Source: a virus
Strand: one strand, 5' to 3'
IMG/VR virus record: IMGVR_UViG_3300017727_001923
Span: 1-33,405 of that record
DNA length: 33,405 nucleotides
The position numbers were made by a program, and so were the translations under genes. Below, piece by piece: positions 13,338 through 17,596 of this stretch (position 1 is the first letter of the stretch; every line of letters begins with the position of its first letter). Under the pieces are notes generated by a model. That model was not told where the DNA came from, made no database searches, and worked only from the letters and a program-made list of their open reading frames with translations.

Positions 13338-13365
13338 CTTGAATTACAAAAATTAATCCTTATAT
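13338..13365 (+). promoter_or_regulatory. RpoH (sigma32)-type heat-shock promoter
   Basis: CTTG-N17-CTTATAT (CTTGAA...CCTTATAT) upstream of hsp20. Confidence 0.6.
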
Positions 13366-13371
13366 ATAGTA

Positions 13372-13459
13372 GTGTGAGAAATAATTCTCACATGCGTGAA
13401 TGCCGTTAATCGGGTTCACGTCCATCTTGCTAAATTAATATAGGAGATAAAGCAACATG
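13372..13459 (+). promoter_or_regulatory. ROSE-like RNA thermometer 5' UTR
   Basis: Three hairpins; the last pairs ATCTTGCTA with TAGGAGAT (SD) leaving a bulged G in UUGCU. Confidence 0.7.
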
Positions 13460-13886: not shown

Positions 13887-13973
13887 ATGAAATTAACCGA
13901 AGCTAAATTAGAGTTCGGTTTGTTTGTAGGAACTATGATGTTAATGGTTCTTGCACTACAACCCTTACTGTAA
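13887..13973 (+). CDS. Micro-protein with one TM helix (28 aa)
   Basis: GAGG RBS; MKLTEAKLEFGLFVGTMMLMVLALQPLL; followed by a terminator. Confidence 0.55.
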   Translation: MKLTEAKLEFGLFVGTMMLMVLALQPLL

Positions 13974-13979
13974 AAACGA

Positions 13980-14005
13980 GAAGGGGGCGGGAAACTGCCC
14001 CTTTC
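13980..14005 (+). terminator. Intrinsic terminator-like hairpin
   Basis: AAGGGGGCGG-GAAA-CTGCCCCTTT. Confidence 0.75.
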
Positions 14006-14013
14006 ATTATGTT

Positions 14014-14754
14014 ATGAAAGCATATATGATTGCAGACCTGAACAATCCAACTTCCGTGAGATATACGGAGATTGCATTAGAGTCATGGCATAATAAAACC
14101 CCCCTTGACATTGAAGTCATTCAGTGTTATACTCCCGACACAATATCAGAATTAGAACCTCTCTATAACTGGCAACCATTGTTACATCATGGTCAAAAGG
14201 AACAGAAACAGTATGCGTCATCCACTGAAAAGTCTGGAGACATTACACACTGGCAGTTAATAAAGAAACGTTCAGAGTCTAAATCAAGATTCTACGTATT
14301 GGAACATGACTCATATCTAGAAGATGCAGACGAATTTAAACGACAGTTTGATTTTACTATGGAACATGGATTGTCTTATGCAAACCATGGACTCTACATG
14401 TCTTGTTATTCTTTTTCTAGAGTTGCAGCAATACATATACATGACTTGTTAACACAACGAGCATTTCCTTTAAATGGAGGCCCGTTTGGATGTGTAGAAA
14501 GATTGGTAAAAACATATCTAAGTGAAAAACCTGACCGCAAGGCAAAGTATACATGGATGTTACATCATCCAAATACAGAGGCAGTAAGTGTGGGATGGTC
14601 TGCCGAAGAAATGTTTCAAGCATATAATTTTAAGAAAAATGATACTCCCTTCAAACGTGCATCAACCCAGATTATATCCAAGTCTATGGGAATCACCCAA
14701 AATCATATAGGGTTGGATTTGTCATTAAGAAAAGGTTTTAAAATAATTGAATAA
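14014..14754 (+). CDS. Glycosyltransferase family 25-like protein
   Basis: KAYMI...H..L.......VLEHD pattern resembling GT25 enzymes; divergent. Confidence 0.55.
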   Translation: MKAYMIADLNNPTSVRYTEIALESWHNKTPLDIEVIQCYTPDTISELEPLYNWQPLLHHGQKEQKQYASSTEKSGDITHWQLIKKRSESKSRFYVLEHDSYLEDADEFKRQFDFTMEHGLSYANHGLYMSCYSFSRVAAIHIHDLLTQRAFPLNGGPFGCVERLVKTYLSEKPDRKAKYTWMLHHPNTEAVSVGWSAEEMFQAYNFKKNDTPFKRASTQIISKSMGITQNHIGLDLSLRKGFKIIE

Positions 14755-14759
14755 AAAGC

Positions 14760-14788
14760 TTGACAAACCCCGTTGAGTTTAGTATAAT
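14760..14788 (+). promoter_or_regulatory. sigma70 promoter driving the intergenic RNA
   Basis: AAAAGC-TTGACA-17 nt-TATAAT. Confidence 0.8.
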
Positions 14789-14794
14789 AGATGT

Positions 14795-15069
14795 ATTGGT
14801 TGGGAATGACGTGACCACCCGCCTAGGGAAGTTTGTGACTTGACGGTGAGTAAGCGACTGACTCCATTAGACTGATTAACATATCAGTGATGGAATCGAC
14901 ATAAGGTGGAAAAGTTAAAAAAACAAAATCAATAGAATTCAAACTTACCGAGTTACAAATGCGTAACAGTACAGTAAGGAGTCTTCCCCCCTAGAGGGTT
15001 GAAGGAAAGAACACACTGATTAGGTGTCCCTCAAAGTAGCTTCAATCCTTGATGATGGGGGTTTTTTTT
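14795..15069 (+). ncRNA. Putative structured non-coding RNA (~270 nt), family unknown
   Basis: No ORF of 60 aa or more; own promoter; nested long-range helices; ends in GGGGG-T8. Confidence 0.6.
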
Positions 15070-15072
15070 ATC

Positions 15073-15101
15073 TTGACTTTTGTATTATCTTCCTGTATAA
15101 T
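15073..15101 (+). promoter_or_regulatory. sigma70 promoter for gp43
   Basis: TTGACT-17 nt-TATAAT. Confidence 0.75.
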
Positions 15102-15124
15102 ACAACATTAACTTAGGATTTTCT

Positions 15125-17596
15125 ATGGATTTTTATACATCAATTGACCGTTACGGCAGCACCCTTTTATATCGTGGGTACTCTGGTGGTCAACGAGTCA
15201 AGAAACGTATCCCGTTTAAACCAACACTGTTTGTAAACTCTCGTAATAAGAACAACGTATCTGGTTGGTCTTCATTAGAGGGTAGACCAGTTGAACCCAT
15301 TGAATTTGAGACTATGCGTGAAGCAACCGAATTCACCAAACGTTATCAACACGTGGACAACTTCAAGGTCTATGGACAAAACAATTTCATCTCACAATTT
15401 ATCGCACAGAAGTTTCCGAATGATATAAAGTTCGAACGTGAACTACCTGTAATCACCACCATTGATATTGAGGTCGCATCTGACCAAGGATTCCCTGAAC
15501 CTGATAAGGCAGACTATCCTGTTATCTCTATCTGTACCAAGTCCAGTAAAGAAGACTTCTTCCGTGTCTGGGGTCTAGGTGAATACACTCCCAAAGAAAA
15601 CTGTATCTACAATCAATGTGACAATGAGTTACAACTATTGGATACATTCCTTGACTACTGGCAGAATCATGGGTCACCTGATATCGTCACTGGTTGGAAC
15701 AGTAAGGGATTTGATATTCCCTATCTTGTTAACAGAACAAGAAAAGTTATTGGAGAAGAGTCCACCAAGAGATACTCACCTTGGGGTGTTGTATCCGCAC
15801 GTACTGTACGTGGTAAGATGGGACACAAAGATGTGGAGACCTATGACCTTATGGGTATTGCACAGTTAGATTACTATGACTTGTTTCGTAAGTTTACACT
15901 CAACACTCTAGGTCAACAAGAATCATATCGACTTGACCATATCGCACACGTGGTACTTGGTGAACGTAAACTCTCATATGAAGAACACGGTAACCTACAT
16001 ACATTATATAAAGAAGACCATCAAAAGTTTATTGACTACAATATCAAGGACGTTGAGTTGGTTGATATGTTGGAAGAGAAACTGGGATTGATTACTCTTG
16101 CAATGACTATGGCATATCGTGGTGGTACTAACTTCGAGGAAGTATTCGGTACGACTACTATTTGGGATACAATCATCTATCGTATTCTTAACCTACAGAA
16201 GATTGCAGTACCATCTAAAGAAGAGAAACCCAAGGGTGACTTTGCGGGTGGATATGTAAAAGAACCCCAAGTTGGTTCACATGATTGGGTAACATCCTTT
16301 GACTTGAACTCCCTGTATCCTATGATTATTGTACAATACAATATGTCACCTGAGACTGTGGTAGATGGTTTAGTTGATACTGACGTAGAACGTATGTTAC
16401 AAGGTATGACTAAGACCGATAGTAATTATGCAACTGCACCATCTGGTGTTCGTTTCCGTAAGGATAAGGAAGGTATTATTCCTAGTGTGATTCGACAGTA
16501 CTATGCAGAACGTAAACAAATCAAACGTGAGATGTTGGACGCAAAACAAGAATACGAACAGACCCCAACAAAGTCCCTTGCAAACAAAGTTGCAACTCTA
16601 GATAACCAACAGATGTCTATCAAGATTCTTATGAACAGTCTCTATGGTGCATTGGGTAATCGATGGTTCAGATACTTTGACCAACGTGTTGCAGAGTCTA
16701 TTACTCTTGCGGGTCAGTTATCAATTCTCTGGGCAGAACGTGCGGTCAATCATGAGATGAACAAACTTCTCAATACTGACGAAGACTATGTGATTGCAAT
16801 TGATACTGATTCAGTCTATATGCGTATGGGTGACCTAGTCAACAAGTTCAACCCCAAAGACCCTGTAAAGTTCTTGGATAAGATTTGTTCCGAACACTTT
16901 GAACCTGTACTGACTAAAGCTTATGAAGTTCTTGCAGACTATACCAATGCATATGTCAATCGTATGGAGATGGGACGTGAGGTTATTGCAGACAAAGGTA
17001 TTTGGGTTGCAAAGAAACGATACATTCTGAATGTACATAACAATGAGGGTGTCCAATACAAAGAACCAAAACTCAAGATTATGGGTATTGAAGCGGTCAA
17101 GTCATCAACCCCGATGGTTGTTCGTGATAAGATGAAAGAGATGTTCCACATACTTGTGAATGGTACTGAGTCTGAGACCCAACAGTATATCAGAAACTTC
17201 CGTAATGAGTTTTCCTCGTTACCACCTGAAGATGTATCGTTCCCTCGTGGTGTAAATGATGTCAAGAAATGGAAAGATACAAAATCTATTTACAAGAAGG
17301 GTACACCTATCCATGTGCGTGGTGCTTTGTTATATAACAAGCATACCAAAGGAATGCGTCATGAGGAAATCAAGAACGGTGAAAAGATTAAGTTCGTCTA
17401 TCTAAAAGTTCCGAACCCGATAAAAGAAAACATCATATCATATCCGCAGAACCTACCCCGTGAGTTGGGTCTTAATAATTATATTGACTATGACAAGATG
17501 TTTGACAAGACATTCCTTGACCCACTTGAACCTATTATGGATGCAGTCGGTTGGACTGCTGAACCTCAGTCATCATTAGAAGATTTCTTCGCTTGA
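15125..17596 (+). CDS. gp43: Family B DNA polymerase gp43
   Basis: Exo DIE motif, [24 protein letters not shown]-terminal SLEDFF clamp-binding motif. Confidence 0.98.

What the first reader, a model, noticed from the sequence alone, without database searches (positions are those of the whole stretch)
14760..15069. Unannotated ~270-nt structured RNA with its own promoter directly upstream of DNA polymerase
Seen: the largest non-coding gap (370 nt) in a densely packed genome, bracketed by a perfect TTGACA-17-TATAAT promoter and a GGGGG-T8 end, while gp43 has a separate promoter at 15073. Nested helices: CTAGGGAAG (14823-31) with CTTCCCCCCTAG (14983-94); TTTGTGACT (14832-40) with AGTTACAAA (14951-59); CGGTGAGT (14844-51) with ACTTACCG (14943-50); inner hairpin TCCAT..ACTGAT/ATCAGT..ATGGA (14863-94). 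There is an A-rich unpaired stretch (about 14909-42) and a 3' helix GAGGGTTGAAG/CTTCAATCCTT (14994-15050). G-U pairs favour the + strand RNA. I cannot match it to tRNA, tmRNA, RNase P or 6S. Inference: a novel phage ncRNA (protein decoy, antitoxin or anti-defence RNA, or leader of gp43), or a T4-style promoter/R-loop replication origin.
Basis: partly seen in the sequence, partly recalled or inferred. Interest (0 to 1): 0.8.

Follow-up and report, generated by a model that had tools for sequence, protein, structure and literature searches.

The report
New folded RNA gene, marine phage
The 370-base gene-free gap in front of this marine T4-like phage's DNA polymerase holds a real, evolutionarily conserved folded RNA gene of an uncatalogued family that moves between phage genomes as a promoter-RNA-terminator cassette; what it does is still unknown.

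Summary
The flagged stretch is real. It is the largest ORF-free gap of the window. It starts with a perfect sigma-70-type promoter, ends in a GC stem plus U8, and the polymerase has its own promoter behind it.

I found 12 distinct homologues in marine viral and metagenome contigs. They support a fold of 59 base pairs, 95.8% kept, with compensatory changes at 20 pairs against 0-4 in slid controls.

The RNA has an invariant 5' core closed by a helix that begins at the predicted transcription start, a variable middle arm, and an ornate terminator-like 3' hairpin.

It matches no Rfam 15 family, tRNA or tmRNA. It occurs once per genome and is absent from most relatives. It sits in three settings: before the pol promoter, fused to a promoter-less tRNA-Glu, or as the leader of an unrelated 101-aa gene.

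Best reading: a portable early non-coding RNA gene, probably acting in trans. A cis-acting read-through regulator is the main rival. A replication origin has no support.

Earlier notes of this scan report similar uncatalogued RNAs beside tRNA-Glu in other marine phages, on other DNA.

The parts
13951..14754 (+). Upstream 267-aa ORF of unknown function. It is not part of the element. It is also present in relatives that lack the RNA.
   Evidence: no Pfam or PHROG family; its end is conserved in RNA-less relatives
14760..14788 (+). Early sigma-70-type promoter of the RNA (TTGACA-17-TATAAT). The -10 box ends 5 nt before the first base of P1 in every family member.
   Evidence: 12 of 12 matches; a promoter at fixed spacing in all homologues
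14794..15069 (+). The structured non-coding RNA, about 275 nt. The start is predicted at A14795 and the end in the U8 run.
   Evidence: stops in all six frames; indels of 10, 14 and 30 nt in homologues; covariation; two metatranscriptome contigs lie wholly inside it
14794..14934 (+). The 5' domain, closed by P1 (14794-14801 with 14927-14934). It contains P2 (CCACC 14815-19 with GGUGG 14905-09) and hairpin P3 (14862-68 with 14889-95, and 14871-74 with 14885-88).
   Evidence: helices 1-4. P1 has 2 compensatory pairs. P2 is C-G in the window and U-A in the other 11. P3 has 2 compensatory pairs.
14802..14861 (+). Nearly invariant core block. It holds the only CCTAGG of the whole genome (14822-27). 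Its internal structure is unresolved for lack of variation.
   Evidence: invariant columns; 87-93% identity to all homologues; CCTAGG once, about 18 expected
14910..14926 (+). A-rich linker of variable length. The L001-type homologues have a 10-nt deletion here.
14935..14986 (+). Variable middle arm: P4a (14935-38 with 14983-86), P4b (CUUAC 14944-48 with GUAAG 14974-78) and hairpin P5 (GUUAC 14952-56 with GUAAC 14963-67). Relatives carry 14- and 30-nt insertions here.
   Evidence: helices 5-7 (5 compensatory pairs); (L111 keeps P4b with yet another sequence)
14987..15069 (+). Ornate terminator-like 3' domain: P6 (CCCCC 14987-91 with GGGGG 15057-61), P7 (14994-15004 with 15040-50), P8 (15013-17 with 15023-27), then U8 (15062-69).
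   Evidence: helices 8-10 (10 compensatory pairs); (folds of four homologues)
15073..15101 (+). The DNA polymerase's own promoter (TTGACT-17-TATAAT). It is also present in relatives without the RNA.
15125..17596 (+). Family B DNA polymerase (gp43-like). It is a neighbour of the element and not part of it.

Best explanation
This is a self-contained gene for a structured non-coding RNA of about 275 nt from an uncatalogued family.

How it is made and built:
- Host sigma-70 RNA polymerase transcribes it early in infection from its own consensus promoter.
- The transcript starts at the foot of helix P1.
- It folds into an almost invariant 5' core (P1-P3), a variable middle arm (P4-P5) and an ornate 3' hairpin (P6-P8) followed by a U run.
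- The 3' hairpin plus U run ends the transcript, fully or partly, and probably stabilises it.

How it moves: promoter, RNA and hairpin travel together as a cassette between early-promoter sites of related marine T4-like (pelagimyophage-like) genomes.

Inferred and not shown: the RNA acts in trans as a stable RNA. Its invariant 5' core would bind a conserved host or phage macromolecule. Where a downstream gene lacks a promoter (tRNA-Glu, or the 101-aa gene), leaky termination and processing would release the RNA from a longer transcript.
For: Structure:
- 12 distinct homologues give 59 pairs, 95.8% paired, with compensatory changes at 20 pairs. Slid controls give 0-4 and about 40% paired; 0 of 500 shuffles reach the observed values.
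- Many conserved G-U pairs fix the strand.

Selection:
- The 5' domain is 85% identical between the window and L030, the central block 90% and the 3' domain 85.5%. Four-fold synonymous sites of the adjacent pol are 53% identical.
- The only CCTAGG in a genome purged of 6-bp palindromes lies in the invariant core.

Not coding: stops in all six frames, and indels of 10, 14 and 30 nt.

Gene-like unit:
- Every member has a sigma-70-type promoter 5 nt upstream of P1.
- There is one copy per genome.
- It is absent from about 70 of 80 pol-linked relatives and from 18 larger related records, one of them 87% complete.
- It occurs in three unrelated settings.
- In the window it is flanked by early promoters on both sides, like the PeSL shuffling cassettes of T4-type phages (PMC2839356, PMC4122927).

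Terminator strength follows need:
- In the window, where pol has its own promoter, the stem abuts U8.
- Before the promoter-less tRNA-Glu, the U run is U6 or has an A between stem and run.
- Before the promoter-less 101-aa gene, UCCC separates the stem from the U run.

Two metatranscriptome contigs from two studies lie wholly inside the RNA, at 100% identity.
Against: - There is no direct evidence of a discrete, abundant transcript. The RNA-library contigs are shallow, flanking genes also appear in other runs, and DNA carry-over cannot be excluded.
- No partner is identified, and no protein gene was found to go with the RNA.
- In two of the three settings the downstream gene depends on read-through. 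That fits a cis-acting leader equally well.
- The family is small and has effectively three clades, with recombination between them (L096 is a mosaic). The covariation events are therefore fewer than the cell counts suggest.
- The single-sequence folding energy is unremarkable.
Confidence: 0.55

Rival explanations
1. Cis-acting promoter-proximal regulator. The invariant 5' domain would sense a ligand or factor (a new riboswitch or attenuator), or modify RNA polymerase (put-like processive antitermination). It would thereby set how much transcription passes its own 3' hairpin and U run into whatever lies downstream: tRNA-Glu, the 101-aa gene or pol.
For: - The layout resembles a riboswitch: it sits directly behind a promoter, has a P1-closed invariant core, and then a terminator-like hairpin.
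- tRNA-Glu and the 101-aa gene have no promoter of their own behind the RNA.
- The homologue of that 101-aa gene in this genome has a plain early promoter and a short leader.
- The invariant CCUAGGG of the core could pair with CCCUAG(G) at the foot of the terminator. That would compete with P6 and act as a possible antiterminator (helices 1-2).
Against: - The downstream genes are functionally unrelated, which is unusual for a riboswitch.
- In the window the downstream pol has its own conserved promoter, and the terminator is at its strongest there.
- The 3' domain is far more elaborate and covarying than an expression platform needs.
- The proposed antiterminator pairing is invariant, so it has no covariation support, and one of its pairs is broken in 7 of 11 sequences.
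- No Rfam riboswitch matches.
Confidence: 0.25
2. A tRNA-associated ornate phage RNA in the manner of GOLLD and ROOL. It would be co-transcribed with tRNA-Glu and work as an RNA-only assembly or scaffold, perhaps self-associating through the palindromic CCUAGG boxes.
For: - In 5 of the 12 distinct homologues (7 of 12 among the pol-linked ones is not the count; the five are L030, L031, L029, L083 and L096) the RNA abuts a promoter-less tRNA-Glu with an encoded CCA.
- GOLLD and ROOL are phage RNAs often found near tRNA islands, and they form homo-oligomeric cages (PMC12286853).
- CCUAGG is self-complementary. It is kept against genome-wide palindrome avoidance, and it is present twice in most members.
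Against: - The RNA is kept without any tRNA in the window-type and L086-type genomes.
- It is two to three times smaller than ROOL or GOLLD and has no similarity to their Rfam models.
- Self-association is pure inference.
Confidence: 0.1
3. A T4-style replication origin, that is, a promoter plus R-loop.
For: A strong promoter lies next to the replication genes, and an A-rich tract follows.
Against: - There is no change in GC skew or AT skew at the site, and no iterons or DNA-unwinding repeats.
- Substitutions preserve RNA base pairs, G-U pairs included, which a DNA element would not require.
- The element is missing from most relatives, which would still need an origin, and it sits elsewhere in L086-type genomes.
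Confidence: 0.03
4. A diverged copy of a known RNA of this phage group: the two-piece tmRNA or the glutamine riboswitch reported for Melnitz and pelagimyophages.
For: - Relatives of this phage group often carry a permuted tmRNA and a glnA-type riboswitch behind an early promoter near the curli genes (PMC9004378).
- In L089-type genomes the RNA lies about 2.3 kb upstream of CsgG.
- This genome has no detectable tmRNA.
Against: - ARAGORN finds no tmRNA.
- Rfam gives no hit to any tmRNA or glnA model, even at E <= 10, in three diverse members.
- There is no T-arm, no CCA end and no conserved tag frame; the A-rich stretch carries a 10-nt indel.
Confidence: 0.02

Closest known systems
Stable RNAs C and D (rnaC, rnaD; 'species 1 and 2') of the phage T4 tRNA gene cluster
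   Same: These are small phage-encoded non-coding RNAs of a T4-type phage, made together with tRNAs, and their function is still unknown (PMC9697503). In five homologues the RNA studied here is fused to tRNA-Glu.
   Different: No homology could be tested, because no T4 sequence was compared. T4 RNA C and D are classed as late RNAs (PMC9697503), whereas this RNA has an early sigma-70-type promoter. This RNA is longer, and it also occurs without any tRNA.
GOLLD (RF01998) and ROOL (RF03087) ornate phage RNAs
   Same: They are structured non-coding RNAs carried by phages, often beside tRNA genes, with no known protein partner and unknown function (PMC12286853).
   Different: They are 500-800 nt or longer, against about 275 nt here. 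There is no match to their Rfam models. Multimer formation is not shown here.
PeSL (promoter-early stem-loop) shuffling cassettes of T4-type phages
   Same: An accessory unit bounded by early promoters, with a stem-loop and U run at its end. It is present or absent between close relatives and sits at different sites (PMC2839356, PMC4122927).
   Different: The cargo of described PeSL cassettes is small ORFs. Here the cargo is a structured RNA.
Two-piece tmRNA and glutamine riboswitch of Melnitz and the pelagimyophages
   Same: These are RNA genes of the same phage group, placed directly behind an early promoter (PMC9004378).
   Different: There is no tRNA-like domain, tag frame, or Rfam or ARAGORN match.
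Terminator-type riboswitches; HK022 put antitermination RNA
   Same: They are promoter-proximal folded RNAs followed by a terminator, with downstream genes that depend on read-through.
   Different: There is no known ligand, no covariation-supported alternative pairing, and the downstream genes are unrelated. The RNA is much larger than put. The put comparison rests on my own knowledge.

Membership tests
Any Rfam 15 family | A covariance-model score at or above the family's gathering threshold | tested here: not met
   There were no hits at gathering score in the window and none over the RNA in 11 homologous loci. At E <= 10 only scattered, inconsistent weak hits appeared in three members (CRISPR-DR, NsiR1 over the terminator, a miRNA).
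tmRNA (one-piece or permuted two-piece) | A tRNA-like domain with T-arm and 3' CCA, plus a tag reading frame with a resume codon and a stop codon | tested here: not met
   ARAGORN finds no tmRNA in the window, the genome or the homologous loci. No Rfam tmRNA model hits. The A-rich stretch has a 10-nt indel and no conserved frame.
Glutamine riboswitch (glnA RNA) | A match to the glnA or Downstream-peptide consensus fold | tested here: not met
   There is no hit even at E <= 10.
6S RNA | A long, mostly double-stranded rod with a large central bubble that mimics an open promoter | tested here: not met
   The covariation-supported fold is a three-domain branched structure. There is no Rfam 6S hit.
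GOLLD / ROOL | A match to the family model, with a size of 500 nt or more and multiple pseudoknots | tested here: not met
   There is no Rfam hit. The RNA is about 275 nt long. Only the setting (a phage, next to a tRNA) is shared.
Intrinsic (Rho-independent) terminator at the 3' end | A GC-rich stem directly followed by a U run | tested here: inconclusive
   In the window a 5-bp all-GC stem (P6) abuts U8. However, it closes a 65-nt structured insert, so the simple scan did not list it. In L086-type members UCCC separates the stem from the U run. Termination efficiency cannot be measured here.
Terminator-type riboswitch | A conserved aptamer plus mutually exclusive terminator and antiterminator pairings, with functionally coherent downstream genes | tested here: inconclusive
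   An aptamer-like invariant core and a terminator are present. The candidate antiterminator (CCUAGGG with CCCUAG) is invariant, so covariation cannot test it. The downstream genes are unrelated.
PeSL-type mobile cassette of T4-type phages | An accessory unit bounded by early promoters and stem-loops, with presence or absence between close relatives | tested here: met
   Early promoters lie on both sides. The cassette is missing in relatives, whose pol promoter abuts the upstream ORF. It sits at another early-promoter site in L086-type genomes.
T4 rnaC / rnaD | Sequence or structural homology to the T4 species 1 and species 2 RNAs | not tested
   No T4 sequence was fetched. The 'distant' blastn search of the phage collection with the region gave no match at all, which argues against close similarity.

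The most novel reading that the evidence does not exclude
The invariant 141-nt 5' domain is a sensor: a new riboswitch or factor-binding aptamer class. It is carried on a portable promoter-proximal cassette and gates read-through of its own ornate terminator. A phage could then put any downstream gene (tRNA-Glu, an early ORF, extra polymerase transcription) under the same physiological signal. In this model the invariant CCUAGGG box switches between the core and the foot of the terminator.
Probability: 0.15. Interest if true: 0.85.

Novelty: new variant of a known kind. Interest (0 to 1): 0.6.

Why it matters
Phages of the most abundant ocean bacteria are known almost only from sequence, and their non-coding genes are essentially uncharted. 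This is a well-supported new RNA family with several notable properties:
- Its core evolves far more slowly than neutral sites of the neighbouring genes.
- That core is kept even though it contains a palindrome the genome otherwise purges.
- It is swapped between genomes like an accessory gene.
- It repeatedly ends up beside tRNA-Glu.

Earlier notes of this scan report other uncatalogued RNAs beside tRNA-Glu or behind early promoters in marine T4-like phages. If those notes hold up, such RNAs may form a general, unexplored layer of phage early functions, such as host takeover, anti-defence or translation control. This family is small and compact enough (141-nt core) for probing, pull-downs or structure work.

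Tried and rejected
- Rfam at gathering score and at E <= 10, on the window and on two diverse homologues: nothing consistent.
- ARAGORN for tRNA and tmRNA: none in the element.
- blastn of the region against 50,697 phage records: no match.
- The exact 17-mer scan of 185,579 prokaryote genomes gave one chance hit in a rumen Lachnospiraceae MAG. No host copy was found this way, but an exact-word scan cannot find a diverged one.
SAR11 or other host genomes could therefore not be searched.
- The covariance model of the 5' domain found no extra or diverged copies in the genome, in 40 loci or in 18 related records.
- The loose pattern GGTGA-N0-1-TAAGCGACNG returned mostly chance hits.
- Target search inside the phage genome: the best antisense match (14843-63 against 4743-62, inside a small membrane-protein ORF) is at chance level, E about 0.5.
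- GGA-motif (CsrA-sponge) enrichment: six GGA against about five expected, by hand count. Rejected.
- K-turn, GNRA-receptor and RNase P CR-I look-alikes, examined by eye, are not conserved across the family.
- The 17-mer of the core also occurs in the pol genes of other phages but not in this phage's pol. I judged this a coincidence.
- Metatranscriptomes: only shallow Logan contigs could be laid. Parts without cover, and the many runs with a small share of words, say nothing either way.
- The internal fold of the invariant block: two candidate hairpins are each broken in one clade, so it remains unresolved.

Full report
**What is there**

The window is the left 33 kb of a complete 149-kb virus record with terminal repeats. 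The phage is a marine T4-like myovirus. It has a family B polymerase, hsp20, a JmjC/cupin gene and the curli-type block known from pelagimyophages. Its polymerase is 63% identical to Phage C48C1 and about 48% to cyanomyoviruses.

The stretch 14755-15124 has stop codons in all six frames. It is the largest ORF-free gap of the window and the second largest of the genome.

A 12-of-12 TTGACA-17-TATAAT promoter lies at 14760-14788. A second promoter at 15073-15101 serves the polymerase gene. A run of five G followed by eight T ends the element at 15057-15069.

**Is it more than chance?**

The single-sequence folding energy is not convincing. The z-score is -1.4 on the + strand and -2.3 on the - strand.

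Comparative evidence is convincing. Polymerase-linked loci from IMG/VR and pattern scans of viral and metagenome contigs gave 12 distinct homologues.

On their alignment a structure of 59 pairs is 95.8% paired. It has compensatory changes at 20 pairs. The same structure slid by 1-3 columns gives 37-46% paired and 0-4 such pairs, and none of 500 shuffles reaches the observed values.

Conserved G-U pairs fix the functional strand as +.

The RNA also evolves much more slowly than neutral sites. Between the window and L030, four-fold synonymous sites of the adjacent polymerase are 53% identical. The 5' domain is 85% identical, its central block 90% and the 3' domain 85.5%.

Indels of 10, 14 and 30 nt, and the lack of any conserved frame, exclude a coding region.

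Supported helices, in window coordinates:

| Helix | 5' strand | 3' strand | Note |
|---|---|---|---|
| P1 | 14794-14801 | 14927-14934 | Starts at the predicted transcription start |
| P2 | 14815-19 | 14905-09 | C-G in the window, U-A in the other 11 |
| P4a | 14935-38 | 14983-86 | |
| P4b | 14944-48 | 14974-78 | |
| P5 | 14952-56 | 14963-67 | |
| P6 | 14987-91 | 15057-61 | CCCCC with GGGGG |
| P8 | 15013-17 | 15023-27 | |

U8 follows P6.

They are broken in 4-9 sequences at the positions whose true partners covary in P4b and P5.

The block 14802-14861 is almost invariant, so its internal pairing cannot be judged. Two candidate hairpins are each disrupted in one clade.

This block carries the only CCTAGG of the whole genome, where about 18 are expected. 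The genome is otherwise purged of 6-bp palindromes. That points to strong constraint on the site.

**Distribution and settings**

The RNA is an accessory gene.
- About 70 of 80 polymerase-linked relatives have only a gap of about 50 nt, in which the pol promoter abuts the upstream ORF.
- A covariance model of the 5' domain finds exactly one copy in this genome. It finds none in 18 larger related records, including one 87% complete.

The element occurs in three settings.
1. In the window, L001, L094, L100 and L091, the order is promoter, RNA, U8, then the pol promoter.
2. In L030, L031, L029, L083 and L096, a tRNA-Glu (UUC) with an encoded CCA and no promoter of its own follows 0-6 nt after the U run, and the pol promoter comes after it.
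3. In L086, L089, L097, L109, L114 and L111, the genomes are also T4-like, with UvsX, a gp41-type helicase and the CsgG/FecR/CHASE2 block.
   - There the RNA lies between unrelated genes about 2.3 kb upstream of CsgG.
   - It is the only thing between an early promoter and a conserved 101-aa gene.
   - The homologue of that gene in this genome has a plain early promoter and a short leader.

Promoter and RNA keep a fixed 5-nt spacing in all members. Even the promoter spacer is shared between the window and the L086 type.

L096 is a mosaic of two types.

The unit therefore behaves like the promoter and stem-loop bounded shuffling cassettes (PeSLs) described for T4-type phages (PMC2839356, PMC4122927). 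The difference is that its cargo is an RNA.

**Expression**

Two shallow metatranscriptome contigs from two studies lie wholly within the RNA at 100% identity (14827-15051 and 14808-15030). Other runs hold only the flanking genes. This is a weak hint, and DNA carry-over is not excluded.

**What it is not**
- It matches no Rfam 15 family in three diverse members.
- It is not a tRNA or tmRNA.
- The whole genome holds only two tRNA-Arg genes as known RNAs.
- The permuted tmRNA and glutamine riboswitch reported for this phage group (PMC9004378) are absent here, and this RNA lacks their defining features.
- There is no skew change or repeat structure that would suggest an origin.
- The pelagimyophage survey does not mention it (PMC7029224).

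**How it most likely works**

Shown: it is a conserved, covarying, promoter-linked, portable RNA.

Inferred:
- It is made early by the host polymerase.
- P1 sequesters its 5' end.
- The ornate P6-P8 hairpin with its U run ends and stabilises it.
- The invariant core binds a conserved partner in trans.
- Terminator quality follows need. The stem abuts U8 where pol has its own promoter, and it is weakened where tRNA-Glu or the 101-aa gene needs read-through. This suggests leaky termination plus processing. RNase P cutting at the tRNA 5' end would release the RNA; that step rests on textbook knowledge.

I give this reading 0.55.

The main rival, at 0.25, is a cis-acting sensor or antitermination leader. 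It fits the two read-through settings and the possible CCUAGGG/CCCUAG competition with P6. It fits poorly with the unrelated downstream genes, the separate pol promoter and the elaborate 3' domain.

A GOLLD/ROOL-like self-assembling, tRNA-associated RNA (PMC12286853) gets 0.1. An origin or a diverged known RNA together get about 0.05.

**Novelty**

This is a new RNA family of the known but poorly understood kind 'structured phage non-coding RNAs, often beside tRNAs'. Earlier AI notes of this scan report other uncatalogued RNAs beside tRNA-Glu or behind early promoters in marine T4-like phages. None shares sequence with this one, and I could not check them.

Noticed in passing
L031:1188-1253 and L029:135-200 (relatives); window 13338-13456: Rfam ROSE_3 thermometer (RF02523) reaches its gathering score upstream of hsp20 in two relatives. 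The window's own hsp20 leader did not reach any gathering score.
   Followed up: partly
whole genome G000; window 14822-14827: The genome is strongly purged of 6-bp palindromes. At least 12 hexamers have 0 copies against 6.5-49 expected (for example AGATCT, 0 against 49). This is consistent with restriction avoidance. The single CCTAGG lies in the RNA core.
   Followed up: partly
L093:7036, L099, L103:1400 (other marine phages): The RNA's invariant 17-mer also occurs, on the sense strand, in the family B polymerase genes of other phages, just after the DTDS motif (…VYLRLGKFV…). The window's own pol differs there. I judged this a coincidence.
   Followed up: partly
L096:1649-1936: This homologue is a mosaic. 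Its 5' and 3' domains are of the L030 type, and its middle arm is 98% identical to the window type. This indicates recombination inside the RNA gene.
   Followed up: no
G000:148465-149135: The largest ORF-free stretch of the genome (671 nt) lies at the right end of the record, which has direct terminal repeats. I did not examine it.
   Followed up: no
G000:82689-82849: Two adjacent tRNA-Arg genes (TCT and ACG) are the only known RNA genes in the genome. There is no tmRNA and no glutamine riboswitch, unlike many relatives described in PMC9004378.
   Followed up: partly
L036-L038, L047-L049, L072, L073 (upstream of pol): Some relatives without this RNA have gaps of 180-260 nt, free of ORFs of 70 aa or more, in the same slot before pol. 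Their content (small ORFs or other RNAs) was not examined.
   Followed up: no
window 14912-14923 and 15063-15074: The A-rich linker is 92% complementary to the U run and the bases after it. This pairing is not conserved, because the L001 type lacks 10 nt of the linker.
   Followed up: partly
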